A DNA stretch of 64,000 nucleotides from Minisyncoccota bacterium (GCA_040905385.1 JBBDRP010000002.1:226292-290291), one strand, 5' to 3'; counted from the first letter of the stretch, positions 26,701 through 63,015 are shown. The notes: a model not told the origin generated them from the sequence alone. Numbers and translations are program-made.

Positions 26701-29700
26701 CAGCAGTTTAACGGAACTGATACATCAATTGGTGGTGTATTTAATCTGAGTGCTAAGGATGAAATGGTCGTGTCGGTATGGGCGCAACCAACGGCCAGCG
26801 GGCAGTCCAGCCGGTCGGGAATATTTGGATACAGTGAATATAACGTTAGTTCAGCCTATCGATTGGGTGGATTTAGATTTACAAGCAGTGATTTAGGTGG
26901 GCTTGATATCTATCTAGATGATGGAAGTGCCGAGTGGTTTAACTCCACACTGACACTGAATCTCAACCAATGGAATTACATGGTGGGTAGATTTGAATCA
27001 GGGGTTACAAAAGATATTCTTATCAATGACCAGTGGGATGAACGTACTGCACCGACAGGCAGTTTGGCAGCGGGGACCTCAAGCATAGCACTTGGTGAAG
27101 TGCAGGAAGATCCTGTGAACCGCCGATTTCAGGGGCTCATTTCCGAGGCTCGCTACAGCACCGTAAAGAGGAGCCAGGAATTTTATGCCGCTGAGTATAC
27201 GAACCAATCGACCACCACCGATTTCTATACGGTCGATACGACACCAATCCAGATTGACAGCATCGAGGATTTGGATGATGTACGCAACGACCTATCAGCC
27301 AGTTATGAGTTGACGCGCAACCTGGATTTCGACGACTGCGCCTCTTATGACACCTGTGCCAATATGGACACCTACACAACCGGCAGTGGGTGGGACCCAA
27401 TTGGCACGAGTGGCGACCCTTTTACAGGTCAATTTGATTTCAAAGGACACTCAATTACCGGATTAATGATAAATAGATCTAGCACCGACTATCAAGGACT
27501 TTTCGGGGCCTTGGGACTTGATGGTTATATTCATAGCGGTTCAATTATTAATGCAGATGTTATCGGTGAGAAACGTACTGCAGTACTTGTTGGTTTCATG
27601 GATGGAAATGCACTTGTCGAACATATTTCTATTAGGAATAGTACTGTTGGAGGGTCGTACAGTGGTAACAAGGGACTGTTAGTTGGATGGTTAAATAGCA
27701 CTACTTCTCTGATAAGAGATTCTTATGCTCAAGGGCAAGCAATTGTAGGTAATTATAGTGCTGCAGCTGGAGAAATACATCCTGTTGATGCTCAGTTTCC
27801 TTCTGAAAATCTTTACTTTGTCGGAACTCTTGATTATGGTGCCAGTAGCCCTGTTGGAGGTATTGATGCGGCAGATAATGCTTTAAATAGTTTTTATGAT
27901 CAGGATGTTGCAGGAGAAATTTTTGGAGCAGATCCAGGAAATGCAACAACAACGGTCATAATGCAGGACATTGATACGTATATTAATGCTGGCTGGGACA
28001 TCGTCCCGATCGAAGAGCATGACGGGCAGGAGTCGACGGCGACCTGGTTTATTGATGATGGTAATGACTATCCGAAGCTGTGGTTTGAACGCGAGGGGGC
28101 CCAAAGCACAGCGTTTGGCGACGACCCCGACGGCGACTTTGCCGACACCGACTGGAGCCACCGCGAGAAGATCACCATCAACCCCGACAAGGTGCCGACG
28201 GTTACAAGTAGCGTTAATTCGCGCGTCACGCAATCCAGTGATGATGCTGAGGAAAAGCTTTCCGATAATAGTATGCTTATCTCAAGTTCTGATCTTGAAC
28301 TTATCGCTGATGGCACGTCGCCTGGCGGCGATCAAGAGATCGGACTGCGTTTCCAGAACATTACTATTCCCCAGGGTGCCGTGATCACCAACGCCTACAT
28401 CGAGTTCCAGACCGACGAGACCAACAGCACTACCACCAACCTAACCTTCCGCGCGGAGGATAATAACGATACGACGACCTTTACTACCGGTAGTGGTGAC
28501 ATTACCAACCGATCCAAGACAGCCGCCTCGGTTGATTGGAACAACGTGCCGGCCTGGAATACGATTAGCGAAAAGCATCAGACCCCGGATCTGTCGGCGG
28601 TGGTGCAGGAGGTGGTTGATCGCGCCGGCTGGCAGAGTGGTAACGCGATGGCGATGTTTGTCACTGGTGACGGAACCCGGATTGCCGAGGCATATGATGG
28701 CGAGGCGGCCAATGCACCGCTGCTGCATATCGAGTACGAATCTCCAGCGGCAACCTTGACGGATTTTCCAGTTTATGTTGATCTGGCCGATCTGTCGGAT
28801 ACGTTTTTCGTCTACGTAGCAAATGACGGGGCGGACATCCGCGTGACGGCCGGTGACGGGCTGACCGAGCTTCCGCGGGAAGTCGTGTCTGTGGATAGCG
28901 TCGGGAAGACGGGTGAGCTGCACTTCAAGGCCGATGCAGTATACGGGTCGGTCGGGACTGAGTTCTACATCTACTACGGTAATCCGTTTGCTGTGAATTA
29001 TTCAGCCACGGATACGTATGGTGCTCAGAATGTGTGGAATAGTAATTATGTGTTGGTTAGCCATGATGGAGGTGCCACAGATTCAACAAGCAATGGAAAT
29101 AATGGAACTGCTAATGGTGATGCTACTGCAGGGATAGCTACTGGTAAAGTTGGTACTGCTGCAGAATTTGATGGAGTTAGTGATTCATTCCAGATAGCAG
29201 ACGACGCTTCGCTTGATACACCCTCCGCAATCACTATTACAGCTTGGGTAAATGCGAACTCATTCAAGTCTGACTTCAGCGAAATTGTTAGTAAGAAGTT
29301 TGATACTGGTTATGATTTCTTGGTCGACAATGATGCTGGCACAAACGATTTGGAATTCATAAGTTTTGATGCAGATATTCTTCAGTATTCCAACGATAAC
29401 GTGGTTGCCACTAGTACTTGGTCTCATGTGGCTGTTACATATGATAAATCAAATGTAAATTTTTATGCGGATGGCTCGTATGAAGGAGGCGGTGCAGAGA
29501 CGGCAGATATTGGTACGAATAATGAGGATCTGTATATCGGTAGCGATGCAGGTAATAGCTGGGAGTGGAATGGACTTATTGATGAAGTCAGGATACTCTC
29601 TAGTTCTCAATCTGCTGACTGGATTACAGTCGAGTATAATAACCAGTCGTCTCCATCCACCTTCTACTCTGTAGGTACGCAGGAGATTAGCGGCGAAGAC

Positions 29701-30481: not shown

Positions 30482-30886
30482 ATGAGCAAAGAACCCAAAA
30501 AGGAGAACAAAATTACATCATTCACTGATCTGACAACGTGGCAAAAAGGCCATGAACTAGTAGTGGAGATTTATGAGACAACCGAGGAGTTTCCTAAGCG
30601 AGAGGTGTATGCGCTTACCGACCAAATTCATCGATCGGCTGTATCAGTTACTTCCAACATTGCTGAAGGGTTTGGTCGTTTTAGCTACGCCGATAGACTA
30701 CATTTTTACCGCATGGCTCGTGGATCACTGACAGAATTACAGAATCAACTCTTGATTGCTCGTGATGTTGGGTATCTCGGCACGGACAAATTTAAAGCCT
30801 TGGCAAGTAAAACCACTACGGTAGAGAAATTACTACAAGGCTTGATTCGAGCCACGAGTGATAGGAAAGATTCACATACCTCTTAG
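30482..30886 (+). CDS. Four-helix-bundle protein (23S rRNA intervening-sequence protein family, TIGR02436-like)
   Basis: ...TDLTTWQKGHELVVEIYETTEEFPKREVYALTDQIHRSAVSVTSNIAEGFGRFSYADRLHFYRMARGSLTELQNQLLIARDVGYL... matches the family pattern (W..A..L...IY.....FP..E...L..Q..R...SI..NIAEG). Confidence 0.75.
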   Translation: MSKEPKKENKITSFTDLTTWQKGHELVVEIYETTEEFPKREVYALTDQIHRSAVSVTSNIAEGFGRFSYADRLHFYRMARGSLTELQNQLLIARDVGYLGTDKFKALASKTTTVEKLLQGLIRATSDRKDSHTS

Positions 30887-49886: not shown

Positions 49887-50210
49887 TGCCGAACATTTGC
49901 CAGAAGAGAAGTAGCGGCTGCCAGTTTTAGTACATGATTATGCAAAAGTTTATTATTCGAGCACGTAAAGGCCTTATTTTTAGCTACAATAAATAGCACA
50001 CAAAACTGTGGATAAGTCTACTTGACTCTGTATACCGTTTTGCTAATATATGTGTACGGGCAAAGACAGAGACATTAAAAATCAAAGTTGAGTCGGTACT
50101 TACGACAACCGCATCACTACGATGCATACACCATACACACCCACTCAACACACACATTTTTAACTCACTCTCAATCTTTCCCACACAACACATATTCATT
50201 TCATTTATAA

Positions 50211-50234
50211 TTCTGCATTTGCAGAATTTTTTTA
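50211..50234 (+). terminator. AT-rich hairpin + T8 (TTCTGCATTTGCAGAATTTTTTTA) ending a G-depleted CA-rich tract
   Basis: Read directly. The stem is weak (6 bp). Confidence 0.4.
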
Positions 50235-50349
50235 TTACATACAGCTATTGACCGCAAGAGCTAATTAGAATAATATGTGGCTGCTGAGACATAATCCCCT
50301 TTGTTTCAGCAGGTTACCAATACAGGTAATTCCATCCCACACTCCTACG

Positions 50350-50380
50350 GGCCCGAGCCAGCTAAGCTCGGGCCTTTTTT
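50350..50380 (+). terminator. Strong rho-independent terminator
   Basis: GGCCCGAGC-CAGCTAA-GCTCGGGCC-TTTTTT, with no ORF upstream. Confidence 0.75.
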
Positions 50381-50471
50381 ATTTAATAAAATGAAAACTT
50401 TAGGTATACTGACAGCATACGTAGCATTCATAGAGGGGTGACAGAGTGGATGAAAAAAATATTATTACAGC

Positions 50472-50557
50472 GGAGGGATGACAGAGCGGTCGATTGTGCA
50501 CGCTTGGAAAGCGTGTGTGCGTTCTTCGCACCGCGGGTTCGAATCCCGCTCCCTCCG
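50472..50557 (+). tRNA. tRNA-Ser (anticodon GGA), class II with long variable arm
   Basis: Acceptor GGAGGGA/TCCCTCC + G, 3-bp D-stem, anticodon loop TTGGAAA, variable hairpin GTGCG-TTCT-CGCAC, T-arm GCGGG-TTCGAAT-CCCGC. Confidence 0.9.
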
Positions 50558-50577
50558 CTGTGGTTGTATTTTTTCGC
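50541..50577 (+). repeat. Direct repeat copy 1: last 17 nt of tRNA-Ser + 20 nt trailer (GAATCCCGCTCCCTCCGCTGTGGTTGTATTTTTTCGC)
   Basis: Identical sequence (with one extra T) at 50691-50728. Confidence 0.85.
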
Positions 50578-50690
50578 GCTCTCTGCAGAATTTGAACGAG
50601 TTGGATTTTTAAGGAGAAAAGAAAGCGCATTTCTGCGCTTTCGTGAGGCGTGGTGACGGAAATTTTGAGTCAGCAAAATTATCTGTGACC

Positions 50691-50728
50691 GAATCCCGCT
50701 CCCTCCGCTGTGGTTGTATTTTTTTCGC
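50691..50728 (+). repeat. Direct repeat copy 2 of the tRNA-Ser 3' end + trailer (att-like scar)
   Basis: See 50541-50577. 113 bp separate the copies. Confidence 0.85.
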
Positions 50729-50799
50729 CCCCCTCAGTATTGAATAACCAACAAGTACTTCGTGTGTTTGTTGGTGGTTAAATAGGTATAATTATAAAT

Positions 50800-51123
50800 A
50801 TGACAAATACAAAGTTAGTAAAATTTAAGTTTAAATTGGGTACTAAACAAATTTGGCTAGATTGGTCAAAGGAGTTAAAGCGAAGGGAAGATGAAGTAAT
50901 TGAGACACTTAAAAATGAAGGTGTTGTTTCTGAATCTTGTTATATGTCAGATGATGGCGAGCATGTTTATTATTTTATGGAAGCAGAAGATTTTGAGAAA
51001 GTAAAAAGGGCTGTTAGTGAAAATCCTCATCCTATTGACAGTGATCATAAAAAGGCCAGAGAAAGTAGTCTAGATTTTGTTTCAAAATTAGAATGTCTTT
51101 TTCATTTTAGTAACAGAAATTAA
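50800..51123 (+). CDS. Hypothetical protein (107 aa), markedly more AT-rich than neighbours; extended -10 TGGTTAAATAGGTATAAT 8 bp upstream
   Basis: ORF only. Compositional contrast visible by eye. Confidence 0.5.
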   Translation: MTNTKLVKFKFKLGTKQIWLDWSKELKRREDEVIETLKNEGVVSESCYMSDDGEHVYYFMEAEDFEKVKRAVSENPHPIDSDHKKARESSLDFVSKLECLFHFSNRN

Positions 51124-51190
51124 CGTTATTAGAACCTTAAAACGTTATACTAAAAAGTATTAAAAACATAGTGGTATACTGGAGTCAGTT

Positions 51191-51715
51191 ATGAAGCGCC
51201 ACCACATTATCCTTACAACGGTTTTCCTAACCCTGGCTGTCATTTTTGTGGCTGGATGGTATCTACTGCCGATTGAGTTGTTTCCGGATCGCGATACAAC
51301 CAACAACAGCGATATAACCCAGTACGCTGTTTGGGAGCACGAAGATCGTTGTTTCTATTTAGATGTGGCAGATACCTCTACGCTCCGGCGTCAAGGTCTC
51401 TCTGGACGCGAGTCTCTCGGATCCAACGAGGGCATGCTTTTTCTGTATCGTTTGTCGGGTGAGTACGGCTTCTGGATGCGGGACATGAACTTTCCAATTG
51501 ACATCATCTGGTTGGATCGAAACGACGAGATTGTCACTATTGTATCGTCCGCATTACCGGATTCGTATCCGGAAATTTATTATCCTGACAATTCTGCCAG
51601 AAAGATCATCGAAGTCTCGGCCGGTGTAGCTGAGAAGCTCGATTTGAATATTGGCGATCGGCTAGATGTGTCCCCGGCAACCTCGACTCCGTCGGTTGAT
51701 TGCGCGATGCTTTGA
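51191..51715 (+). CDS. DUF192 (COG1430) domain protein with N-terminal TM anchor
   Basis: ...YLDVADTSTLRRQGLSGRESLGSNEGMLFLY...FWMRDMNFPIDIIWLDRNDEIVTI.... Confidence 0.75.
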   Translation: MKRHHIILTTVFLTLAVIFVAGWYLLPIELFPDRDTTNNSDITQYAVWEHEDRCFYLDVADTSTLRRQGLSGRESLGSNEGMLFLYRLSGEYGFWMRDMNFPIDIIWLDRNDEIVTIVSSALPDSYPEIYYPDNSARKIIEVSAGVAEKLDLNIGDRLDVSPATSTPSVDCAML

Positions 51716-51862
51716 CGATGTATTTTACAAGCATGCAAGAGAGTTTTCTTGTCGTTTAAAACCGTAAATGAAATGATCTCACCCCATTTTCTGTACTATA
51801 ATTAGATACACAACTCAATACGATTACTGTACTTTACTAATTCTTAACGCCACACATTTTAA

Positions 51863-53197
51863 ATGTCAAAAACTACATCCCAAGATTCTGATACAGCAGG
51901 ATTTTCAGTCACGGAGGCTGAAAAAATTGTCGGTAATGTCCTAAAACGCGACGGTAGCAAGGTTGCGTTTGATATTGATAAAATTGTCGCTGCTATTATG
52001 GGCGCTATGAGCGAAGCTGAAGAGGGAACCGAAGACGATGCCCGACAAGTAGCTGAAAATGTCCTGATGGAGCTGGCTCGTATAAAGGATCGCTACGCGA
52101 CGTTTCTGCCGTCGGTAGAAGGGATTCAGGACCATGTCGAGAAGGAGCTCATTAAGGCCAACTATGCCGCTACGGCCAAGGCCTATATTTTGTATCGGCA
52201 TCGACAGGCTGAGCTACGTGAGCGTAACCTGTTTCGTCCACGTCAGAATCTCAAGCCGTACGAGTATCCCGAGCTGGCCGAGTACGTCGATGCTATCCGG
52301 CACTCCTACTGGATTCATACCGAGTTTAACTACACCTCGGATATCAATGACTACAAAGCCAACATTACGGATGTGGAGCAGAGCGCCATCAAGAACTCCA
52401 TGCTGGCGATTGCGCAGATCGAGGTGGCGGTAAAGACTTTCTGGGGTGATTTGTATAAGAAGATGCCGAAGCCAGAGATCGGGGCAGTCGGTTATACGTT
52501 TGCTGAAAGTGAGGTTCGTCACATGCAGGCGTACTCACATCTGCTGGAAATTCTTGGCCTGAATGGTGAGTTTAAACACCTTACCGAGGTGCCAGTAATC
52601 AAGGAAAGAATTGATTACCTGAATCGGGCGGCAGCACCATCGCATAATGACAACGATCGCGAGTATACGCGCTCCATATTTCTGTTCTCCTTGTTTGTAG
52701 AGCATGTATCACTGTTCAGTCAGTTCCTGATCATTATGGCCTTTCAGAAGCACAAGAACCTCTTTAAGGGCATCTCTAACGTCGTCGAGGCTACCTCAAA
52801 GGAAGAGCAGATTCACGGTCTGTTTGGAATTGACCTCGTAAATCAGATTAAAAAAGAAGAGCCACGTTGGTTTGATGACGAGTACGAGCAATCGGTGCGC
52901 AACATGTGCCGGGAGGCGATGGCGACCGAGGAAAAGCTGGTCGACTGGATCTTCGAGGCTGGCGAGCTTGATTTTCTTCCTAAGCAGGTGGTGCATGAGT
53001 TCCTCAAGCACCGTATGAACAACTCCTTGAAATCAATTGGCTATGCGCCAGAGTTTGATACTGATAAAGATCTTGTGGCCGAAACAGCCTGGTTTAACGA
53101 AGAGGTGATTGCCACCAAGCATGTCGACTTCTTCCAGAAGCGCTCCATCAATTACTCCAAAAAGACGCAGAGTGTCACCTCTGATGACCTCTTCTAA
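51863..53197 (+). CDS. nrdB: Ribonucleotide reductase small subunit (NrdB, ferritin-like di-metal R2) with an N-terminal ATP-cone
   Basis: N-term VLKRDGSKVAFDIDKIVAAI (ATP-cone). R2 core ...EVRHMQAYSHLLE..., ...SLFSQFLIIMAFQ... Precedent: ATP-cone-containing NrdB proteins are described in the literature. Confidence 0.8.
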   Translation: MSKTTSQDSDTAGFSVTEAEKIVGNVLKRDGSKVAFDIDKIVAAIMGAMSEAEEGTEDDARQVAENVLMELARIKDRYATFLPSVEGIQDHVEKELIKANYAATAKAYILYRHRQAELRERNLFRPRQNLKPYEYPELAEYVDAIRHSYWIHTEFNYTSDINDYKANITDVEQSAIKNSMLAIAQIEVAVKTFWGDLYKKMPKPEIGAVGYTFAESEVRHMQAYSHLLEILGLNGEFKHLTEVPVIKERIDYLNRAAAPSHNDNDREYTRSIFLFSLFVEHVSLFSQFLIIMAFQKHKNLFKGISNVVEATSKEEQIHGLFGIDLVNQIKKEEPRWFDDEYEQSVRNMCREAMATEEKLVDWIFEAGELDFLPKQVVHEFLKHRMNNSLKSIGYAPEFDTDKDLVAETAWFNEEVIATKHVDFFQKRSINYSKKTQSVTSDDLF

Positions 53198-53244
53198 CGA
53201 TGACCGGGGAGTGCTTATTTACCACCTAACACACAGTCACTGAT

Positions 53245-54921
53245 ATGTCATACGAATGGTTAAACGAACAGTCACAAACATTTCTCGAGCGTGGGTACCT
53301 GGTTGGCGACCAGACGCCGAAGGGGAGAATTCGCGAGATTGCTGAAACCGCCGAAGAATACCTCCAGAAGGACGGCTTCGCCGATAAGTTCGAGGACTAC
53401 ATGTCCAAGGGCTACATCTCATTGGCTAGTCCAGTTTGGAGTAACTTTGGGCTGGATCGGGGGTTACCAATCAGCTGCTTTGGATCTGACATTGCCGATA
53501 ATATGAGCAGTATTTTATATACACAGGCGGAGGTTGGCATTATGAGTAAGTACGGTGGGGGAACCTCAGCTCACTTTGGTAATCTGCGCGAGCGTGGTGC
53601 CTCGATTTCTAACAATGGTCAGTCCAACGGTCCGGTCCACTTTATGCAGCTTTTTGACAAGATGGTTGATGTAGTTAGCCAGGGAAATGTGCGCCGCGGA
53701 AATATGGCGACGTATCTTCCGGTTGAACATCCAGACATCATGGAGTTTCTAGATATTGGTACTGAAGGAAACGAGATTCAGGGGCTGACTCACGCCGTAA
53801 CAGTTGGGGATGATTGGATGCAGGAAATGGTGGACGGCGATGACGAGAAGCGCGCCATCTGGGCCAAGGTTATCCAGCGTCGTGGAGAGATCGGCTATCC
53901 GTACATTATGTTTTCTGATAATGCCAACAACAACCGACCACAGGTTTACAAGGATAAGGACATGCGTATCAAGGCCACGAACCTGTGTTCGGAAATCATG
54001 CTGCCATCAGACGAGGATCTTTCCTTTGTCTGCTGCCTGTCTTCAGTGAATCTCCTCCACTACAACGAATGGAAGGACACCGACCTGATTGAGACCGTGA
54101 CGTACTTTCTGGATGCCGTTATGGAGGACTTCATCGTCTCGCTGGAACGGCTGCGTGACTCTGACGAAGAGGAGGATCAGCAGTCATTTGAGTTCATGAA
54201 ACGAGCGCATAAGTTTGCCAAGGAGCACCGTGCTGTTGGGGTCGGTGTGTTGGGTTGGCACTCATTCCTGCAGTCCCGTAGCATTCCGATGGAAAGCCAG
54301 GAGGCTGATCAGCTGAACGTAGAAATATTTAAAAATCTTAAAGAAAAAACGTATGCTGCCTCCGAGGAAATGGCGCAGGTGTACGGTGAGCCGGAGGTCC
54401 TGAAAGGCTACGGTCGGCGTAATACGACGACGATGGCGATTGCACCAACTACCTCATCATCCTTTATTTTGGGGCAGGTTTCGCAAAGCATCGAGCCGCT
54501 GATGAGTAACTGTTACGTAAAGGATCTGGCCAAGATAAAGACCACCATTCGCAATCCATACCTGAAAGAAATTCTCAAGGAGAAGGGGAAGGATACGGTG
54601 GAAACCTGGGACAGCATTCGCGACAATGATGGGTCCGTCCAGCACCTGGATTATCTTTCCGAGCATGAGAAGGAGGTGTTTCGCACCTACGCAGAGATGG
54701 ATCAGGCCAAGATTATTGAGCAGGCAGCGGTACGTCAGCAGTACATTGACCAGGGACAGTCTCTGAACGTACTGGTTGGTCCGGAGGCTTCGGCTAAGGA
54801 TATCAATGAGCTGTATCTGAAGGCGTGGCGAAACGGGGTCAAGGCACTGTACTATCAGCACAGCATGAACGCTGCCCAGCAGCTGAGTCGGAAGAAGATT
54901 TGTGCGGCTTGTGAAGCGTAA
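53245..54921 (+). CDS. nrdA: Class I ribonucleotide reductase large subunit (NrdA/NrdE-like), short form without ATP-cone
   Basis: Catalytic NLCSEIMLP motif and C-terminal redox pair KICAACEA. 558 aa. Confidence 0.75.
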   Translation: MSYEWLNEQSQTFLERGYLVGDQTPKGRIREIAETAEEYLQKDGFADKFEDYMSKGYISLASPVWSNFGLDRGLPISCFGSDIADNMSSILYTQAEVGIMSKYGGGTSAHFGNLRERGASISNNGQSNGPVHFMQLFDKMVDVVSQGNVRRGNMATYLPVEHPDIMEFLDIGTEGNEIQGLTHAVTVGDDWMQEMVDGDDEKRAIWAKVIQRRGEIGYPYIMFSDNANNNRPQVYKDKDMRIKATNLCSEIMLPSDEDLSFVCCLSSVNLLHYNEWKDTDLIETVTYFLDAVMEDFIVSLERLRDSDEEEDQQSFEFMKRAHKFAKEHRAVGVGVLGWHSFLQSRSIPMESQEADQLNVEIFKNLKEKTYAASEEMAQVYGEPEVLKGYGRRNTTTMAIAPTTSSSFILGQVSQSIEPLMSNCYVKDLAKIKTTIRNPYLKEILKEKGKDTVETWDSIRDNDGSVQHLDYLSEHEKEVFRTYAEMDQAKIIEQAAVRQQYIDQGQSLNVLVGPEASAKDINELYLKAWRNGVKALYYQHSMNAAQQLSRKKICAACEA

Positions 54922-54949
54922 CGTAAATACCAATCTTTTGCGTGCGCAC

Positions 54950-54975
54950 AAATAAATCCCTGCGAGGATTTTTAT
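54950..54975 (+). terminator. Weak hairpin + T-run after nrdA (AAATCCCTGCGAGGATTTTTA)
   Basis: 5-6 bp stem. Confidence 0.35.
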
Positions 54976-55062
54976 CCGCTCAGGCGCTCAGTTTGATAGA
55001 AATCGGACATCATACTGAGCGCCTTGCGCAAGGCTCCGAAAAAGAGGTATTTACTCAGTTCA

Positions 55063-55093
55063 TCGATTTTATTTTCTTTGAAAATAAAATCGG
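55063..55093. repeat. 13-bp-stem hairpin TCGATTTTATTTTC-TTT-GAAAATAAAATCGG immediately preceding motif-family copy A
   Basis: Read directly. Confidence 0.7.
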
Positions 55094-55396
55094 AAAGGAA
55101 GTCCGAACAAAACAAGGTGCTCGCATTGAAGTTTCTTGCCTAATCTATAGTTATGTTACTCGGCTTCGTCTCTTTAAGTAAAGCTAAGAAGTATCCCTGT
55201 GCTGAAGCTAGAACAGTACATAGATAAGAGGTAATTTTTGCCCAAAAAACGACCCAGAACGGCTATTTATTTTGGTTGAAAAAAGTCGATATTGAATTAT
55301 TCCATCTTATTTTTAGAGATGTTTTTTATAGCCAGCTACTGCGCACTAGTTAAACGATATCTTTTACAAATATGCAATTAAGGTTTTTGTTTAGCA

Positions 55397-55426
55397 TCTA
55401 TCAGTAAAAATAATTTTACTGATAGA
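55397..55426. promoter_or_regulatory. Perfect inverted repeat TCTATCAGTAAAA-ATAA-TTTTACTGATAGA ~65 bp upstream of the class-II-like RNR gene; candidate operator
   Basis: 13-bp arms read directly. Not a canonical NrdR box. Confidence 0.4.
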
Positions 55427-55491
55427 AACATAATATAATACATAAACAATTAAATAATGTTTCGGTTTTAAAATCTAATTATTTATTCTTT

Positions 55492-57819
55492 ATGTCTCAA
55501 TCAGCATCTCAATTAGGGGAGGGTAAAAGAAATGTATCAGTGGATGAAGCTGAAAAAATTATTGGTAAAGTCATGAAGCGTGATGGTGCTATTGTTGATT
55601 TTAATATTGATAATATTGCGAACGCTATTTTCTCTGCAATGAAAGAGACGGAAGAGGGATCTAAATCAGCAGCAGAAAAAGTTGCCAAGCGTGTTTTAAC
55701 AGAGCTCGTTCGTATCAAGGAGCGATACGCTACCTTCGTCCCTTCTGTTGAAGGAATTCAGGACCATGTAGAGAAGGCACTTATGCGAGCTGACTTTCCG
55801 CAGACGGCCAAGGCTTATATTTTATATCGAGAGAAGCGATCGCAAGAGAGAGAGCAAAAAACCTATGTAGTTCCCGAGGAGGTTAAGCAGGCGGTGGCTG
55901 AGTCAAGTCAGTATTTCGGCAGTTCTTATCAGGAGTTTATTTTTTACCGCACCTACTCTCGTTGGCGAGATGATCTCGGTCGGCGGGAAACTTGGACGGA
56001 GGCCATCGATCGGTATATGGATTTCATGCGTGAGAATGTTGGCAACAAAATAACTGAATCTGAGTATAAGGAAGTTCGTCAGGCTATGCTGGATATGGAA
56101 ATTATGCCTTCGATGCGACTACTTTGGTCGTCCGGTAAGGCGGCTCGGGAGTCAAATGTTTGGGCGTACAACTGTTCTTATTTAGCACCAACTCGGTTGC
56201 GAGATTTTCCCGAAATGATGTATATCCTTATGTGTGGAGCTGGTTTAGGCTACTCGGTTGAGACTGAGAATATTGGGCAGTTACCGCAGATAATTAAGCA
56301 AACAGGAGAGCAGCTAGAGACACATGTGGTGGCTGATAATAAAGAGGGTTGGGCTGATGCTTTTCTTCATGGTCTTGAGACGTGGTATGCCGGTAAGGAT
56401 ATTGAGTTTGATTACTCGAAGGTGCGTCCGAAAGGGGCTCGCTTGAAGACGGCTGGTGGTACAGCCAGCGGTCCGCAGCCGCTGAAGAACTTAATGGCTT
56501 TTTCTCGTGAGAAAATTCTTGCTCGACAAGGTAAGCGACTATCAACCATTGATGTGCATGACATAATTTGTAAAATCGGAGAGATTGTAGTATCTGGTGG
56601 AGTGCGACGATCGGCCTTGATTTCGTTGTCAGATCTTGGTGACGAGGATATGCGTGATGCTAAAAAAGGGCGCTTCTTTGACACGGAACCGCAGCGAGCC
56701 ATGGCCAACAACTCAGCAGTTTATGAAGAAAAACCATCACCAGGAACCTTTCTGTCTGAGTGGACAGCGTTGGTGAAAAGTAATTCTGGAGAACGCGGTA
56801 TCTTTAATCGCGGTGGCCTGGAGGAGCAGCTACCCGAGCGCCGTGCAAAAATATTTCGCGAGAAAGAGGAGAATGGAGATATGAGTTTCCGGCCAGGAGT
56901 TAATCCGTGTGGTGAAATTATTCTGCAGAGCCGACAGTTTTGCAATCTTACCAATGTGGTAATACGGAAAGGGGATACCGTGAAAGAGCTGAAGCGGCGT
57001 ATGCGGCTGGCGAGTCTGCTTGGTACGTACCAAGCAACCTTGACAAAGTTCAAGTATCTGTCTGAGGAATGGAAGCAGAACTGTGACCAAGAGCGCTTAC
57101 TTGGCGTTGCCTTTACTGGCTATTATGACAACGAGGCGGTACGCGATGATAAGGTGATGGAGGAGCTTAAAAACGAAGCCGTAGCCGCCAATGATAAGTA
57201 TGCGGAACGTCTTGGTATTAGTAAATCAACCTGTGTGACTACGGTGAAGCCAAGTGGAAACTCATCCCAGCTAACTGACACAGCTTCGGGAATGCATCCA
57301 CGCTACGCTCCGTACTACATTAGACGCGTACGAATCAGCGATACTGATCCTTTGTTTAAATTAATGAAGGAAGAAGGGGTGTCGTACCAGCCTGAGGTTG
57401 GTCAGACTGAGGATACAGCCAATACGTTTGTGCTAGAGTTTCCGCTGAAAGCACCGGAAGGAGCCATCACAACTAAGGATGTTAGTGCCTTAGATCTACT
57501 TAAGGAGTGGCGCCGCGTCAAGGAGCATTACACAGAACATAATCCTTCAATCACGATTTCGGTTGGTGATGATGAGTGGATTGAAGTGGCTAACTTTCTG
57601 TATAAAAATTGGGAGACGGTTGGTGGACTGTCATTTCTGCCACGAACTGACCACGTTTACGACTTAGCTCCGTATGAGCCAATCTCGAAGGAGGAGTACG
57701 AAGAGATGGTTTCCCAGGTGCCGGATGTTGACTTTGCTAAGCTGTCCGCTATCGAGGCGACAGATAATACCGAGGGATCAAAGGAGTTTGCCTGCGTGTC
57801 TGGAGAGTGTCCAATTTAG
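55492..57819 (+). CDS. Ribonucleotide reductase, class II (adenosylcobalamin-dependent, NrdJ-like) with N-terminal ATP-cone
   Basis: N-term VMKRDGAIVDFNIDNIANAIFSA (ATP-cone). NPCGEIILQSRQFCNLTNV active-site motif typical of class II. 775 aa. Confidence 0.65.
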   Translation: MSQSASQLGEGKRNVSVDEAEKIIGKVMKRDGAIVDFNIDNIANAIFSAMKETEEGSKSAAEKVAKRVLTELVRIKERYATFVPSVEGIQDHVEKALMRADFPQTAKAYILYREKRSQEREQKTYVVPEEVKQAVAESSQYFGSSYQEFIFYRTYSRWRDDLGRRETWTEAIDRYMDFMRENVGNKITESEYKEVRQAMLDMEIMPSMRLLWSSGKAARESNVWAYNCSYLAPTRLRDFPEMMYILMCGAGLGYSVETENIGQLPQIIKQTGEQLETHVVADNKEGWADAFLHGLETWYAGKDIEFDYSKVRPKGARLKTAGGTASGPQPLKNLMAFSREKILARQGKRLSTIDVHDIICKIGEIVVSGGVRRSALISLSDLGDEDMRDAKKGRFFDTEPQRAMANNSAVYEEKPSPGTFLSEWTALVKSNSGERGIFNRGGLEEQLPERRAKIFREKEENGDMSFRPGVNPCGEIILQSRQFCNLTNVVIRKGDTVKELKRRMRLASLLGTYQATLTKFKYLSEEWKQNCDQERLLGVAFTGYYDNEAVRDDKVMEELKNEAVAANDKYAERLGISKSTCVTTVKPSGNSSQLTDTASGMHPRYAPYYIRRVRISDTDPLFKLMKEEGVSYQPEVGQTEDTANTFVLEFPLKAPEGAITTKDVSALDLLKEWRRVKEHYTEHNPSITISVGDDEWIEVANFLYKNWETVGGLSFLPRTDHVYDLAPYEPISKEEYEEMVSQVPDVDFAKLSAIEATDNTEGSKEFACVSGECPI

Positions 57820-57834
57820 AATAAAAAGGTTGGT

Positions 57835-58161
57835 TTGATTTATACACAATCAAATGTTATAATTATCATTGGTGATTGCGTAGTCGCCCCCCACCACTTT
57901 GTGCATTACGTTTACGTTTTAAAAAGTCAGAAGGATAAAAAGCTCTACATTGGAGTGACGGAAGATCTTAAACGACGTTTTGCTGAGCATCAAAATGGAG
58001 AAAATCGCTCAACGAAACATCGTCGTCCGTTTACACTTGTTTACTACGAAGCATTTAGAGCCAAAGTAGATGCTCATGAAAGAGAGCGGAAGCTAAAACA
58101 GTTTAAGAATTCGTATAAACATCTAAAGGATCGTATTGGTAAATGTATTGATAGTGCATAA
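57835..58161 (+). CDS. GIY-YIG nuclease superfamily protein (YhbQ/UPF0213-like); alternative GTG start near 57900
   Basis: VHYVYVLKSQKDKKLYIGVTEDLKRRFAEHQNG...RRPFTLVYYEAF GIY-YIG core. Confidence 0.75.
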   Translation: MIYTQSNVIIIIGDCVVAPHHFVHYVYVLKSQKDKKLYIGVTEDLKRRFAEHQNGENRSTKHRRPFTLVYYEAFRAKVDAHERERKLKQFKNSYKHLKDRIGKCIDSA

Positions 58162-58495
58162 AGTGGTGGGGGGAGGAAAGTCCGAACACACCCTGATTTT
58201 TTAATCTGGAGCACGTAGCGGGTAACTCCCGTCAGTCGTAAGACTGTGGTGCGAACAGTGACGCTGAAATTTGAAAGGGTTTCAGCATCCCCCACTTTTA
58301 AAGGTAGCGGATGAACTTGGTGGCAACACTAAGGTGAAACGGCTAAATCTGTACGTGTGTGCAAGGCCGTATTCCAGCCTCCGGGCTGGTCTGAGCCGCT
58401 TGAGTACAGTGGTAACACTGTACCTAGACAAATGACTACAACGGAACTTATGTAACGTAGGTTTCTAAACAGAATTCGGCTTACGGATCACCAAA
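58162..58495 (+). ncRNA. rnpB: RNase P RNA (bacterial type). The 5' boundary is uncertain and may overlap the end of the GIY-YIG ORF.
   Basis: P4 5' strand GGAGGAAAGUCCGAAC (58172-58187) and 3' strand ACAGAAUUCGGCUUACGG (58469-58486), with a compensatory CCGAA/UUCGG change relative to the E. coli CCGGG/CCCGG. Spacing ~290 nt as in E. coli. Short P1 UGGUG/CACCA. Confidence 0.6.
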
Positions 58496-58503
58496 ATATA
58501 CGA

Positions 58504-58532
58504 AAAAGCCACCCTGACGGTGGCTTTTTCTT
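58504..58532 (+). terminator. Rho-independent terminator after rnpB
   Basis: AAGCCACC-CTGA-CGGTGGCTT-TTTC. Confidence 0.7.
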
Positions 58533-58595
58533 TTAGCTTGACGCTGAGGTTATTCGTATATTTTTTCTTTCAGCACGCTATAATAGGAAGGCATT

Positions 58596-60278
58596 ATGTT
58601 TAAGCGCATTCTCTTTTTTCTGAGTAAAAAAATCACTGGTTTACACCAGGCTGCGTATATTATTGGGTTCTTTACGCTGCTTAGCCAGGTCTTGGGCTTG
58701 GTGCGTGATCGTCTGCTTGCTTATAACTTCGGCGCCGATACAACGGTGGATATCTACTACGCGGCTTTCCGTATTCCGGACATTATTCTGGTTGTGGCAG
58801 GATCCGTTGTTTCCATATCAGTCTTGGTTCCATTTCTTACCAAGAAGATATCTCAGAGCAAAGAGGTTGCAGAAGAGTTCATTGATACAGTCTTCACGAT
58901 ATTCTTTATTGGAGTTATTACGATCTGTATCCCGCTTTACTTCCTGATGCCGAACCTGATTCCGGTTGTCTTTCCCGGAATTACGGACGCAGTAGCCCAG
59001 GCTAATCTGATCTTTTTGGCTCGGCTATTCCTCCTATCGCCAATCCTGCTGGGGCTGTCTAACATCTTTGCGTCCATTATTCAGGTACACCGGCGATTTC
59101 TTATCTACGCGATTTCACCGCTTCTCTATAATTTAGGTATTATTATTGGTATTGTGGCGCTCTACCCGTATTTCGGGATTACAGGGCTTGGACTTGGAGT
59201 TGTTCTCGGAGTGCTGATGCATGTTGGAATTCAGCTGCCGTTTATTATCAAGAAGGGGTTCGTTCCACGCTGGTTTTTTCCTGCTGACCGTAGCGAGATC
59301 TGGAAGGTGGTGCGCAACTCTTTGCCGCGAACCTTCACGCTTTCGATTGATAAACTGGCCCTACTATTTCTCGTTAGCTTGGCATCGCTTATTGGTTCGG
59401 GTTCAATTGCGATCTTTAACTATGCCTGGAACCTACAGTCGGTGCCAATGGCGCTGGTTGGGGCCAGCTATTCATTGGCGGCTTTTCCGGTGTTGTCGCA
59501 GTTGTTTGCTGATGGTGATATGAAGGGATTTATGCGCCAGGTGCAGACAGCCATCCGGCATGTTGTCTTCTGGTCGCTACCGATCCTGTCACTTTTTATT
59601 GTTCTGCGGGCGCAGATAGTTCGTACCATTCTTGGGGCTGGAGAGTTCGGCTGGCTGGCGACACGATTGACAGCGGCATCGCTGTCGCTTTTCGTGATTT
59701 CGGTAGTGGCACAAAGCCTGGTGCTGGTACTGGTTCGAGCCTACTATGCAGCTGATGATACAATGACGCCGCTGATAACCAGTGTGATTGGCGGTACGAC
59801 GATTCTGGGTGGTGCCTACGGTCTAATGGCGGCCTTTCAGAATATTCCGGTATTTCGATTCTTTCTCGAGAATTTGCTGCGCGTACGCGGGATAGAAGGT
59901 ACTGGTGTATTGGTGCTGCCGCTGGCGTACTCACTGGGAATGGTAGTAATGGTAGCCATCCTGTGGTACTTTTTTCAGGACAAGTTTGGTCTCTTTCCAG
60001 CTGATATGTATCGCTCGCTCTGGCAGTCAGCTGGTTCAGCCATAGTTGGTGGCTTCGTTGCCTACGGTGGTCTGCTGCTGTTTGGAAATTGGCTTGCGCT
60101 TACAACCGGGCTCGGTATCTTCCTACAGGGATTTTTGGCTGGTATTACCGGCATCGCAGCGATGATTTTGACTTTGTGGCTGATGGATAATCAAGAACTT
60201 GAGGAGATGTGGCAGGCTGTGCGTGAACGTTACTGGCATGTATCCGTAGAAGCCATCGGTCCAGCCGAACAACAATAA
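58596..60278 (+). CDS. murJ: Lipid II flippase MurJ (MviN)
   Basis: ...LSQVLGLVRDRLLAYNFGADTTVDIYYAAFRIPDI..., 12-14 TM helices, 560 aa. Confidence 0.85.
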   Translation: MFKRILFFLSKKITGLHQAAYIIGFFTLLSQVLGLVRDRLLAYNFGADTTVDIYYAAFRIPDIILVVAGSVVSISVLVPFLTKKISQSKEVAEEFIDTVFTIFFIGVITICIPLYFLMPNLIPVVFPGITDAVAQANLIFLARLFLLSPILLGLSNIFASIIQVHRRFLIYAISPLLYNLGIIIGIVALYPYFGITGLGLGVVLGVLMHVGIQLPFIIKKGFVPRWFFPADRSEIWKVVRNSLPRTFTLSIDKLALLFLVSLASLIGSGSIAIFNYAWNLQSVPMALVGASYSLAAFPVLSQLFADGDMKGFMRQVQTAIRHVVFWSLPILSLFIVLRAQIVRTILGAGEFGWLATRLTAASLSLFVISVVAQSLVLVLVRAYYAADDTMTPLITSVIGGTTILGGAYGLMAAFQNIPVFRFFLENLLRVRGIEGTGVLVLPLAYSLGMVVMVAILWYFFQDKFGLFPADMYRSLWQSAGSAIVGGFVAYGGLLLFGNWLALTTGLGIFLQGFLAGITGIAAMILTLWLMDNQELEEMWQAVRERYWHVSVEAIGPAEQQ

Positions 60279-62769: not shown

Positions 62770-63015
62770 ATGAAAAAAGTTACCATTTACTCTACACCGA
62801 CATGCCAGTACTGCGAGGCGGCAAAAGAATACATGAAGGAGCACGAGATTGATTACAAAGATTACGATGTATCTTCCGACACCGACCGACGCAAGGAGAT
62901 GATTGAGAAGTCAGGACAGATGGGCGTTCCGGTTATCGTCATTGGTGAGGAGATGATGGTTGGATTTGAGCAGGACAAGTTTGAGGAGTTACTGGCGTCA
63001 CAAAGCGAAGAATAA
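62770..63015 (+). CDS. Glutaredoxin-like protein (NrdH/YruB-like thioredoxin fold)
   Basis: VTIYSTPTCQYCEAAKEYM...GVPVIVIG CxxC motif. Confidence 0.8.
   Translation: MKKVTIYSTPTCQYCEAAKEYMKEHEIDYKDYDVSSDTDRRKEMIEKSGQMGVPVIVIGEEMMVGFEQDKFEELLASQSEE

What the first reader, a model, noticed from the sequence alone, without database searches (positions are those of the whole stretch)
51863..57819. Unusual RNR locus: ATP-cone on NrdB, cone-less NrdA, plus a class-II-like RNR carrying a paralogous copy of the same N-terminal module
The first ~115 aa of NrdB (51863-~52215) and of the class-II-like RNR (55492-~55865) are clearly paralogous (ATP-cone + a linker ending ...RIKERYATF(L/V)PSVEGIQDHVEKxLxxAxxxxTAKAYILYR...). 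The same allosteric module has been grafted onto two mechanistically different reductases. The class I catalytic subunit (NLCSEI, CAAC tail) has none. Cone-on-R2 enzymes are a rare, recently characterised arrangement. Having it alongside a cone-bearing class II enzyme in a minimal genome is notable for dNTP-pool regulation. A perfect 13-bp inverted repeat (55397-55426) upstream of the second enzyme is a candidate operator.
Basis: partly seen in the sequence, partly recalled or inferred. Interest (0 to 1): 0.6.

Follow-up and report, generated by a model that had tools for sequence, protein, structure and literature searches.

The report
RNR on/off domain copied between enzymes
In this small-genome (Paceibacterota) bacterium, the ATP/dATP-sensing switch domain of the vitamin-B12-dependent ribonucleotide reductase, together with its promoter region, was duplicated onto the radical-generating subunit of an acquired oxygen-dependent reductase, giving an unusually clear example of how this regulatory module moves between unrelated enzymes.

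Summary
nrdB (51863-53197) encodes an ATP-cone plus a class Id-type beta core. nrdA (53245-54921) has no cone. The gene at 55492-57819 is a monomeric, L. leichmannii-type class II RNR with an N-terminal cone. The two N-termini are 56% identical over 125 aa (E 5e-39).

The cones match because a segment was duplicated. It covers the last ~15-25 nt of the upstream DUF192 gene, the promoter region, a ~24-aa leader and the cone, ending at the YILYR codons. In relative L007 this is one contiguous 532-nt repeat (E 3e-52).

The direction was class II to NrdB:
- DUF192-nrdJ-murJ-lepA is the ancestral synteny across Paceibacterota.
- The clade's NrdB cones nest inside NrdJ cones.
- Other cone-NrdBs lack the leader.
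- Relatives carry nrdJ only, nrdBA only, or both at this same site.

Both cones keep every dATP-binding and cone-cone interface residue named for L. blandensis NrdB. Nonsynonymous divergence is low while synonymous sites are saturated.

The 13-bp inverted repeat exists, but it is not conserved in orthologues and is not an NrdR box. A box shared by both upstream regions (51717-51738 and 55356-55377) is a better regulatory candidate.

Cone-on-NrdB is already known. The cross-class transfer of cone plus promoter is new.

The parts
51191..51715 (+). DUF192 gene. It is the conserved left neighbour of the RNR locus, and its last ~15-25 nt belong to the duplicated segment.
   Evidence: Pfam PF02643, E 2e-26. 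DUF192-nrdJ synteny is seen in at least 12 distant Paceibacterota loci. A relic of its 3' end lies upstream of nrdJ.
51716..51862 (+). Repeat copy 1, non-coding part: the nrdB upstream region. It holds the conserved box GATGTATTTTACAAGCATGCAA (51717-51738) and a -10-like TATAAT (51797-51802).
   Evidence: Alignment A1 of 8 upstream regions shows TTTTACAA invariant. The box pattern occurs only twice in the window, against 0.00 expected. Coordinates.
51863..51934 (+). NrdB N-terminal leader (aa 1-24). It is homologous to the NrdJ leader and absent from other cone-bearing NrdBs.
   Evidence: Alignment; BLASTP.
51935..52210 (+). NrdB ATP-cone (aa 25-116), derived from class II. The repeat ends at the YILYR codons (about 52197).
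   Evidence: Pfam. Cone identities and trees. Junction. Interface and nucleotide-contact residues conserved.
52211..53197 (+). NrdB linker plus class Id-type (NrdBi) metal-binding core and C-terminal tail.
   Evidence: 566 bits, ungapped, to 5OLK, L. blandensis NrdB. E187, K191, W194, Y224, E280 and T311 match Lb E170, K174, W177, Y207, E263 and T294.
53245..54921 (+). nrdA, the cone-less class Id-type catalytic subunit (NLCSEI; CAAC tail).
   Evidence: TIGR02510, 775 bits against a cut-off of 602. Best solved structures 6DQX and 6DQW. No PF03477 hit.
54922..55338 (+). nrdA-nrdJ spacer with two further hairpins (54982-55024 and 55064-55092). No convincing gene.
   Evidence: No Rfam match at E<=1.
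55339..55491 (+). Repeat copy 2, non-coding part.
   Evidence: The inverted repeat is not conserved in L007 or L008.
55492..55842 (+). NrdJ leader (aa 1-25) and ATP-cone (aa 26-117).
   Evidence: Pfam. Cone residues equivalent to Lb D73, E76, K89, I92, I93, R95 and R102 are invariant or at least 90% conserved across 52 Paceibacterota NrdJ.
55843..57819 (+). Monomeric (RTPR-type) class II RNR core, with the NPCGEI thiyl loop and the C-terminal CVSGECPI.
62770..63015 (+). 81-aa glutaredoxin/NrdH-like redoxin (CQYC). It is syntenic with the RNR locus in all relatives and is a plausible electron donor (inferred).
   Evidence: ORF. PF00462 genes sit at the same relative position in L001, L003, L004-L005, L007 and L008 (L006 ends before it).

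Best explanation
The locus is an evolutionary intermediate in the replacement or supplementation of one ribonucleotide reductase by another.

Ancestral state (shown): DUF192 - promoter - nrdJ - (rnpB) - murJ - lepA, where nrdJ is a monomeric B12-dependent class II enzyme with an N-terminal ATP-cone.

What happened in an ancestor of this clade (inferred from the anatomy):
- A horizontally acquired class Id operon (nrdB-nrdA, NrdBi/NrdAi type) became installed at this site.
- A ~0.5-kb segment was duplicated with it: the DUF192 3' end, the promoter region, the leader and the cone.
- NrdB's own cone was thereby replaced by the resident class II cone, with the junction at the conserved AKAYILYR end of the cone.
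- Both enzymes therefore share homologous upstream DNA and homologous ATP/dATP sensors.
- Later lineages kept both (window, L007, L008), lost nrdJ (L004-6, L003), or carry only nrdJ (L001/2). The last group is either ancestral or has reverted by recombination between the direct repeats.

How it works (inferred by homology, not shown):
- On NrdB the cone acts as in L. blandensis. With ATP, beta2 forms active alpha2beta2. With dATP (two per cone), cones pair through helices 3 and 4, giving inactive beta4.
- On the monomeric class II enzyme the same interface most likely drives dATP-dependent self-association that lowers activity.
- The class I enzyme needs O2 or superoxide and Mn. The class II enzyme needs adenosylcobalamin. 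Carrying both widens the conditions under which dNTPs can be made, while one kind of dATP feedback governs both.
For: 1. Paralogy: 56% identity over 125 aa, E 5e-39, and 69% over 285 nt, ending at the YILYR codons.

2. The repeat extends into non-coding DNA.
- In L007 it is a single 532-nt alignment (808-1332 vs 4154-4675, 68%, E 3e-52). It starts 25 nt inside DUF192 and runs through the intergenic region, leader and cone.
- In the window, the DUF192-end relic and the 24-mer box are retained at colinear positions.
- The box pattern occurs only at these two sites in 64 kb.

3. Direction of transfer.
- Across the 45 genome contigs (GTDB species-representative) loci returned, no nrdB core was detected within 7 kb of nrdJ, and the only hit to the window's NrdA was the 23%-identical reductase at L056, outside Paceibacterota. 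At least 12 keep DUF192-nrdJ, and several continue with murJ-lepA.
- Other Paceibacterota nrdB-nrdA operons sit in unrelated contexts and have leaderless B-type cones.
- Over the cone columns, clade NrdB is 64% identical to its own J cones and up to 72% to other J cones, but at most 55% to other NrdB cones.
- In the NJ tree, clade-B cones plus 4 J cones form a group nested among J cones. In 150 bootstraps the group is monophyletic in 72%, contains no other B cone in 93%, has an all-J sister in 81%, and all B cones are never monophyletic.
- phmmer of the NrdB cone against 1.84 billion representatives: among the 60 best hits examined, those that could be classified were 21 J-type and 2 B-type.

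4. The NrdB core is ordinary NrdBi: about 71% identity to other cone-NrdBs and 566 bits to 5OLK.

5. All three locus states occur at the same site in relatives, recovered from independent assemblies.

6. Function is retained.
- Every residue named for the cone-cone interface or the gamma-phosphate contact in L. blandensis (D73, position 76, M80, K89, I92, I93, R95, R102) is conserved in both cones.
- Cone dN is 0.06-0.13 between close relatives while dS is saturated.
- The J-derived cone is kept on NrdB in lineages that lost nrdJ.
Against: - No biochemistry exists for any cone-bearing monomeric class II RNR. The only class II enzyme with a cone that has been studied (T. acidophilum) showed no activity regulation (PMC9669993), so the dATP off-switch on NrdJ is inference.
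- The low identity of the clade's NrdB cone to other NrdB cones is not anomalous in itself. NrdB pairs with 65-75% core identity also share only ~44-46% cone identity. The case rests on positive similarity to J cones and on the DNA repeat.
- The cone alignment has only 94 columns, and NJ support is moderate (72-93%).
- Within the 18-tip group, B and J cones are not cleanly reciprocally monophyletic. One transfer versus several, or later gene conversion, cannot be settled.
- The physical route of the rearrangement is not recoverable (tandem duplication then core replacement, or direct recombination).
- Whether L001 is ancestral or a revertant is unknown.
- Only 64 kb of a 784-kb contig was visible, so NrdR, B12 uptake and adenosylation genes elsewhere were not assessed.
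Confidence: 0.8

Rival explanations
1. Opposite direction. The incoming class Id NrdB brought its own cone, and the resident class II enzyme's cone and upstream region were overwritten by the NrdB copy.
For: Only the copy attached to nrdB lies next to the intact DUF192 gene, while the nrdJ copy carries a relic. Cone trees on 94 columns have limited resolution.
Against: - The clade's cones group with and nest among J cones: sister all-J in 81% of bootstraps, majority B among the nearest 10 or more tips in only 9%.
- The clade's J cones reach 76% identity to other J cones but at most 52% to other B cones.
- An N-terminal leader is typical of Paceibacterota NrdJ and absent from other NrdBs.
- DUF192-nrdJ adjacency with a cone-bearing NrdJ is widespread in distant Paceibacterota that have no nrdBA nearby.
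Confidence: 0.04
2. No transfer. Each enzyme inherited its own cone vertically, and the similarity reflects common descent of all ATP-cones plus shared constraint in one cell.
For: All these cones share a ~42-47% identity floor and many invariant residues.
Against: - 64-73% identity between B and J cones of the clade is far above that floor.
- Homology continues through the leader and non-coding upstream DNA into the 3' end of DUF192. Protein-level constraint cannot produce that.
Confidence: 0.02
3. Concerted evolution. B and J cones were homogenised repeatedly by gene conversion between the adjacent genes, or transferred independently in sublineages, rather than copied once.
For: In the NJ subtree the L001 J cone (P0077) sits beside the L003-type B cones rather than with the other J cones. 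Direct repeats about 3.6 kb apart are substrates for conversion.
Against: - In the window the two cones differ at 31% of nucleotides, with dS about 2, so there has been no recent conversion.
- B-B orthologue identities (82-92%) exceed B-J identities within a genome (64-73%) across window, L004 and L007.
- The leader, junction and locus position are the same in all clade members, which favours one event.
Confidence: 0.1
4. The 13-bp inverted repeat (55397-55426) is the key regulatory element: an operator for NrdR or another repressor, specific to the class II gene.
For: It is a perfect 13+13 repeat between the conserved box and the -10-like TATAAT. Some Patescibacteria do encode NrdR directly upstream of nrdJ (L018, L019, L053).
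Against: - It is not present in the orthologous upstream regions of L007 or L008, nor in the paralogous nrdB upstream region.
- The NrdR-box consensus (recalled from Rodionov & Gelfand 2005) gives 0 hits at up to 3 mismatches in the window.
- No nrdR lies within the 64 kb.
- The half-site has no other exact copy in the window.
- Comparable perfect inverted repeats occur six times in the window.
Confidence: 0.07
5. Assembly or binning artefact: a chimeric contig joins RNR genes from two organisms.
For: The source is a metagenome-assembled genome.
Against: - nrdB-nrdA-nrdJ colinearity is found in three independent assemblies: the window, L007 from SRR34348050 and L008 from SRR34348019.
- More than 30 protein clusters from JGI, ENA, Logan and NCBI carry the J-type cone on NrdB.
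- Flanking genes are syntenic and co-diverge with the RNR genes.
Confidence: 0.01

Closest known systems
Leeuwenhoekiella blandensis NrdAi/NrdBi (class Id RNR with the ATP-cone on NrdB; PDB 5OLK; PMC5794259)
   Same: - Same architecture: N-terminal cone on beta and a short cone-less alpha.
- 566-bit ungapped match of NrdB.
- Metal-site and second-shell residues, and the cone interface and nucleotide-contact residues, are conserved.
- L. blandensis also carries a class II RNR.
   Different: - Here the cone on NrdB is not the NrdBi-lineage cone. It is a copy of the resident class II enzyme's cone, with an extra ~24-aa leader and that gene's promoter region.
- The L. blandensis class II enzyme has no cone, whereas here it has the paralogous one.
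- The organism is a Paceibacterota (CPR) bacterium, not a flavobacterium.
Lactobacillus leichmannii RTPR (monomeric class II RNR; PDB 1L1L)
   Same: - Best sequence and fold match: E 4e-48, and Foldseek E 5e-37 with TM 0.66/0.71.
- NPCGEI thiyl loop, C-terminal CxxxxC-PI, insertion-domain Pfam hit.
   Different: - RTPR has no ATP-cone.
- The window enzyme scores 302 bits on TIGR02505, below its 340 cut-off.
- Substrate phosphorylation state (NTP or NDP) is untested.
[quoted passage not shown]
   Same: A class II enzyme that carries an N-terminal ATP-cone.
   Different: Activity regulation was not observed for it (quoted in PMC9669993). Here the nucleotide-binding and interface residues are strictly conserved, and the same cone serves on an NrdB whose family depends on it, which argues that it is functional.
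Multiple-cone NrdA enzymes (e.g. P. aeruginosa NrdA), proposed to arise by cone duplication (PMC9669993)
   Same: An ATP-cone spread by intragenomic duplication rather than by horizontal transfer of the domain.
   Different: There the duplication is tandem within one polypeptide. Here the copy moved to a non-homologous protein of another RNR class and took the promoter with it.
Facklamia ignava Grx-ATP-cone-NrdB fusion (PMC6187632)
   Same: A class I beta subunit that gained N-terminal accessory modules. A glutaredoxin is functionally linked to the RNR.
   Different: In the window the Grx-like redoxin is a separate gene about 5 kb downstream (62770-63015), not fused.
NrdR repressor and NrdR boxes
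   Same: ATP-cone-based control of nrd genes. NrdR is present next to nrdJ in some Patescibacteria (L018, L019, L053).
   Different: There is no nrdR and no NrdR-box-like site in this window. The shared upstream box here has a different sequence and no known binder.

Membership tests
NrdBi / class Id radical-generating subunit with N-terminal ATP-cone | Ferritin-like R2 core closest to NrdBi members | tested here: met
   PF00268, E 8e-58. 566 bits, ungapped, to 5OLK. About 71% core identity to Flavobacteriales and other cone-NrdBs.
NrdBi / class Id radical-generating subunit with N-terminal ATP-cone | Residues described around the L. blandensis metal site (E170, K174, W177, Y207, E263, T294) | tested here: met
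   All six are identical at the aligned positions E187, K191, W194, Y224, E280 and T311.
NrdBi / class Id radical-generating subunit with N-terminal ATP-cone | N-terminal ATP-cone with the residues used for dATP binding and cone-cone pairing | tested here: met
   PF03477, E 1e-21. D90, E93, I97, K106, I109, L110, R112 and R119 correspond to Lb D73, position 76, M80, K89, I92, I93, R95 and R102. By descent, however, the cone is not the NrdBi cone.
NrdBi / class Id radical-generating subunit with N-terminal ATP-cone | Mn2(IV,III) cofactor and dATP-induced beta4 formation | not testable with these tools
   Needs EPR, activity assays and hydrodynamics on purified protein.
NrdAi (cone-less class Id catalytic subunit) | Short alpha subunit without an ATP-cone, matching the NrdE-prime model, encoded next to nrdB | tested here: met
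   558 aa. TIGR02510, 775 bits against a cut-off of 602. No PF03477. Best solved structures 6DQX and 6DQW. The gene starts 48 nt after nrdB.
Monomeric class II RNR (RTPR / NrdJm type) | Sequence and fold closest to L. leichmannii RTPR rather than to dimeric NrdJ or class I alpha | tested here: met
   1L1L is the only RNR-core sequence hit (E 4e-48). AlphaFold model pLDDT 86; Foldseek 1L1L E 5e-37 against about 1e-16 for T. maritima NrdJ.
Monomeric class II RNR (RTPR / NrdJm type) | Insertion domain that mimics the dimer interface | tested here: met
   PF21995 RNR-II_ins_dom, 30.8 bits against a cut-off of 27, aa 276-335. The same domain is precomputed for most of the listed homologues. The monomeric state itself was not measured.
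Monomeric class II RNR (RTPR / NrdJm type) | Curated equivalog score (TIGR02505) | tested here: not met
   302 bits against a cut-off of 340. It is a divergent Paceibacterota branch with an added cone, so I call it RTPR-type, not an RTPR equivalog.
Monomeric class II RNR (RTPR / NrdJm type) | Thiyl-radical cysteine loop and C-terminal redox cysteine pair | tested here: met
   NPCGEI at aa 471 and CVSGECPI at aa 768-775, aligned with 1L1L NPCGEI and C..G.CPI.
Monomeric class II RNR (RTPR / NrdJm type) | Adenosylcobalamin dependence and NTP substrates | not testable with these tools
   Needs an enzyme assay.
NrdR-regulated nrd operon | Tandem NrdR boxes upstream of the nrd genes | tested here: not met
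   0 matches to ACACWATATATWGTGT at up to 3 mismatches in 64 kb. The consensus was recalled from the literature, not taken from a tool.
NrdR-regulated nrd operon | nrdR gene in the genome | tested here: inconclusive
   tblastn with a Patescibacteria NrdR (from L018) finds nothing in the window. Only 64 kb of a 784-kb contig could be read.

The most novel reading that the evidence does not exclude
The two enzymes carry cones with the same helix-3/helix-4 pairing surface. dATP-loaded NrdB and NrdJ cones might therefore pair with each other as well as with themselves. One nucleotide signal would then co-sequester a class I radical subunit and a monomeric class II reductase in mixed oligomers, which would be cross-class allosteric coupling. 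A related point: the ~0.5-kb direct repeats make the class I cassette excisable, so lineages could toggle between O2-dependent and B12-dependent dNTP synthesis.
Probability: 0.1. Interest if true: 0.85.

Novelty: new variant of a known kind. Interest (0 to 1): 0.6.

Why it matters
ATP-cones are called 'evolutionarily mobile'. [quoted passage not shown]

This locus offers three things:
- A concrete route of cone movement: intragenomic duplication of cone plus promoter, from a class II alpha onto a class I beta, with a mapped junction. Living relatives represent the before, the intermediate and the after states.
- A natural test of class II cone function. A class II-derived cone has been kept for a long time as the only cone of an NrdB whose family uses the cone as its off-switch.
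- An accessible model for the unanswered question of how a cone could regulate a monomeric RNR. The cone-bearing monomeric class II enzyme is the standard RNR of a very large, uncultured bacterial group.

Tried and rejected
- Rfam. The gathering scan of the whole window found only three tRNAs. A permissive scan of 54850-58650 found no riboswitch or other RNA upstream of nrdJ, only RNase P RNA downstream.
- Sigma-70 promoter and terminator scans were no better than shuffles, so no promoter is asserted. Only a conserved TATAAT and a conserved box are reported.
- NrdR. The box search and a tblastn for nrdR in the window were both negative.
- The palindrome TTGTATATACAA after the -10 in L004 and L007 looked like an operator. 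It is not conserved in the window's own two copies, so I dropped it.
- Remnants of nrdJ were sought in the nrdA-murJ gaps of L004 and L003, and of nrdBA in L001. None were found. The conserved block there turned out to be rnpB.
- The search of 1.84 billion representatives with the cone returned mostly truncated metagenomic fragments. It was useful only after classifying the residues that follow the cone.
- Low cone identity to other NrdBs as a recombination signal was rejected as uninformative, because NrdB cones diverge that fast anyway.
- dN/dS: synonymous sites are saturated in every comparison, so only dN and the fact of saturation are reported.
- The third homologous-protein search, the metagenome scan and the second structure job were not used.

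Full report
WHAT IS THERE

The window comes from a Candidatus Paceibacterota (Patescibacteria/CPR) metagenome-assembled genome. The class II protein and NrdB are 100% identical to NCBI proteins on a 784-kb contig.

Three RNR genes lie head to tail on the + strand:
- nrdB, 51863-53197, 444 aa.
- nrdA, 53245-54921, 558 aa.
- A third gene, 55492-57819, 775 aa.

Domain content:
- Pfam places an ATP-cone at NrdB 25-116 and Ribonuc_red_sm at 127-401. NrdA has only the lgN and barrel domains. The third protein has an ATP-cone at 26-117, plus RNR_Alpha and the B12-RNR insertion domain.
- NCBIfam puts NrdA above the cut-off of TIGR02510 ('NrdE-prime'). The third protein matches TIGR02505 (RTPR) best, at 302 bits against a cut-off of 340.
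- Against solved structures, NrdB matches L. blandensis NrdB (5OLK) without a gap at 566 bits. NrdA matches 6DQX and 6DQW. From memory, not verified here, these are class Id alpha subunits.
- The third protein's only RNR-core match is L. leichmannii RTPR, 1L1L.
- An AlphaFold model of it (pLDDT 86, pTM 0.80) finds 1L1L first (E 5e-37, TM 0.66/0.71). Dimeric T. maritima NrdJ and class I alpha follow at about 1e-16.
- NLCSEI and CAAC in NrdA, and NPCGEI and CVSGECPI in the class II enzyme, are present.

THE PARALOGY

- The two N-termini align over residues 1-125 with 56% identity, E 5e-39, and nowhere else.
- At DNA level the cone codons are 69% identical over 285 nt. The alignment ends at the codons for YILYR, the last conserved motif of the cone.
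- After that point NrdB continues with the linker typical of cone-bearing NrdBs (RERxLF..NLKPYEYPEL). NrdJ continues with the class II N-terminal helices.

THE SIMILARITY IS A SEGMENTAL DUPLICATION

The regions upstream of nrdB and nrdJ are homologous.
- An alignment of eight upstream regions (window, L007, L004, L003, L001, L008) shows an invariant TTTTACAA inside a box GATryaTTTTACAAnnnnGCAA. It also shows a conserved TATAAT about 57 nt downstream of the box and 52-60 nt before the ATG.
- In front of nrdB the box directly follows the DUF192 stop codon.
- In front of nrdJ it is preceded by a degenerate copy of the last DUF192 codons (55339-55354).
- In relative L007 the repeat is one contiguous 532-nt alignment (808-1332 vs 4154-4675, 68%, E 3e-52). 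It begins 25 nt inside DUF192 and ends at the end of the cone.
- In the window the box pattern occurs only at these two places, against 0.00 expected. The pattern was derived from these sequences, so its value lies in the cross-genome conservation.

DIRECTION OF THE TRANSFER

(a) Synteny.
- Of the best 120 NrdJ homologues listed, all carry a cone, and those that are named are Paceibacterota or other Patescibacteria.
- Across the 45 genome contigs (GTDB species-representative) loci returned, no nrdB core was detected within 7 kb of nrdJ, and the only hit to the window's NrdA was the 23%-identical reductase at L056, outside Paceibacterota. At least 12 have DUF192 immediately upstream, and several have murJ-lepA downstream.
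- The ancestral state is therefore DUF192-nrdJ-murJ-lepA.

(b) Cone-bearing nrdB-nrdA operons of other Paceibacterota lie in unrelated contexts. Their NrdB starts directly with the cone, without a leader.

(c) Cone identities.
- Over 94 cone columns, the clade's NrdB cones (about 30 protein clusters, P0121-P0153) average 64% identity to the clade's NrdJ cones. They reach 72% to other NrdJ cones, but at most 55% to other NrdB cones.
- The NrdB core is about 71% identical to those other NrdBs.

(d) Phylogeny.
- In an NJ tree, the clade's NrdB cones plus four NrdJ cones form a group nested among NrdJ cones.
- With 150 bootstraps on 95 cones, the group is monophyletic in 72% and contains no other NrdB cone in 93%. 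Its sister is all-NrdJ in 81%, and all NrdB cones are never monophyletic.

(e) An exhaustive phmmer search with the NrdB cone against 1.84 billion representatives returns mainly class II-type sequences. Among the 60 best hits examined, those that could be classified were 21 J-type and 2 B-type.

One caution. NrdB cones diverge quickly, so the low identity to other NrdB cones is not informative on its own. The argument rests on the positive evidence above.

LOCUS STATES IN RELATIVES

All share M48 ... DUF192 - [RNR] - (rnpB) - murJ - lepA - divIC - grx.
- Window, L007 and L008 have nrdB-nrdA-nrdJ.
- L004-L006 (flanking genes about 90% identical to the window) have nrdB-nrdA only, with no nrdJ remnant.
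- L003 (flanks about 65% identical) also has nrdB-nrdA only.
- L001 and L002 (flanks about 71% identical) have nrdJ only.

What this shows:
- L004 is closer to the window than L007 is, so nrdJ was lost recently in the L004 lineage.
- The J-derived cone remains on NrdB after nrdJ is gone.
- The two cones in one genome are about as diverged as orthologous cones between the deepest members of the clade, with dS about 2. The duplication is therefore old, and there has been no recent gene conversion.
- The same arrangement in three independent assemblies excludes a chimeric contig.

FUNCTION

Shown:
- Every residue that the L. blandensis paper names is conserved in both window cones. These are the cone-cone interface (D73, position 76, M80, K89, I92, I93), the internal salt bridge (D73-R95) and the gamma-phosphate contact (R102).
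- Across 52 Paceibacterota NrdJ, the equivalent positions are invariant or at least 90% conserved.
- Nonsynonymous divergence of the cones is 0.06-0.13 between close relatives, with synonymous sites saturated.
- The NrdB metal-site neighbourhood is identical to L. blandensis.

Inferred from the characterised homologue (PMC5794259):
- ATP-loaded NrdB forms active alpha2beta2 with NrdA.
- dATP (two per cone) drives beta4 formation through cone pairing and inactivates the enzyme.

Inferred with less support:
- The same surface on the monomeric class II enzyme mediates dATP-dependent self-association that lowers activity.
- The literature notes that class II cones have no demonstrated function, and that the one studied case showed no regulation (PMC9669993). 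This is the weakest step.
- However, a class II-derived cone serves as the sole cone of an NrdB family that uses it as an off-switch. That argues the class II cone binds nucleotides and pairs.
- The class Id enzyme requires oxygen-derived oxidant and Mn, and the class II enzyme requires adenosylcobalamin (established knowledge of the classes). Having both plausibly broadens the conditions for dNTP synthesis.
- A Grx/NrdH-like redoxin (62770-63015, CQYC) is syntenic in all relatives and is a plausible reductant.

THE INVERTED REPEAT

- It exists. It sits between the conserved box and the TATAAT of the nrdJ copy.
- It is absent from the orthologous regions of L007 and L008 and from the nrdB copy.
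- It has no other exact copy in the window.
- It does not fit the NrdR box: 0 hits for that consensus at up to 3 mismatches.
- Some Patescibacteria encode NrdR directly upstream of nrdJ (L018, L019, L053). None is present in these 64 kb.
- The repeat may be a strain-specific site or hairpin, but nothing supports calling it the operator. The box shared by both genes and conserved across the clade is the better candidate, though its binder and role are unknown.

COMPARISON WITH WHAT IS KNOWN, AND NOVELTY

- Cone-on-NrdB with a cone-less NrdA is the described NrdAi/NrdBi (class Id) arrangement. The window's enzyme meets its sequence-level criteria.
- The class II enzyme is RTPR-type by sequence and fold, but it falls below the curated equivalog cut-off and has an added cone.
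- What I did not find in the searched literature is the transfer of a cone, with its leader and promoter, from a class II catalytic subunit to a class I radical subunit. Nor did I find any treatment of the cone-bearing monomeric class II enzymes of Patescibacteria.
- I rate this a new variant of a known kind. The components are known. The cross-class origin of the cone, the mapped junction and the series of locus states are new.

Noticed in passing
window 58135-58499 (+): RNase P RNA (RF00010, class A). It scores 68 bits, below the gathering cut-off of 100, but covers the full model at E 8e-20, so the default Rfam scan missed it. A bidirectional terminator-like hairpin follows at 58502-58530. 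The block is 85% identical in L004 but lies in the opposite orientation in L007, L003 and L001, so rnpB has been inverted among close relatives.
   Followed up: partly
window 57835-58161 (+); likely start GTG 57901: Small GIY-YIG nuclease-family ORF (PF01541, E 7e-17) wedged between nrdJ and rnpB. It overlaps the 5' end of rnpB by 27 nt. It is single-copy in the window and essentially absent from the same site in relatives (L008 shows only a 19-aa trace). It may be a mobile insertion next to an RNR gene.
   Followed up: partly
window 62770-63015 (+): 81-aa glutaredoxin/NrdH-like redoxin with a CQYC motif. It is conserved downstream of lepA-divIC in every related locus that extends that far (L006 ends before it), and is a candidate electron donor for the RNRs.
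   Followed up: partly
L018 6432-6899; L019 6117-6584; L053 5621-6067: nrdR lies directly upstream of the cone-bearing nrdJ in other Patescibacteria and DPANN-labelled MAGs. In L018, two NrdR-box-like sites (TTACTATATATAGGGG and CCACAACATATTGTAT) sit upstream of nrdR. Some CPR lineages therefore have both NrdR and a cone on class II.
   Followed up: partly
window 55397-55426: The inverted-repeat half-sites TCTATCAGT / ACTGATAGA resemble the half-sites of the tet operator (recalled from memory, not tested), but are separated by a 12-nt A/T-rich stretch. No TetR-family gene was looked for.
   Followed up: no
window 49900-51190, compared with L004 4423-7329 and L001 3502-7320: The stretch between the M48 peptidase and DUF192 varies among relatives. 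The window has tRNA-Ser(GGA) plus DUF6176. L004 has META and SOUL genes. L001 has a kinase-like gene and L001 and L003 have an aldo-keto reductase. The RNR site sits beside a hot spot of gene turnover.
   Followed up: no
window 2138-13117, 13177-19737, 20728-30423 (+): Three giant ORFs in a row (3659, 2186 and 3231 aa), taking up about 27 kb of the window. They were not analysed.
   Followed up: no
window 54982-55024 and 55064-55092: Two further hairpins lie in the nrdA-nrdJ spacer: a 16-nt stem at 94% and a perfect 13-nt stem. They may be nrdA terminators. Part of this spacer (55098-55146) is conserved in L004, even though nrdJ is deleted there.
   Followed up: partly
window 30482-30886 (+): A 23S rRNA-intervening-sequence protein family gene (PF05635, E 4e-37) lies just after the giant ORFs.
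   Followed up: no
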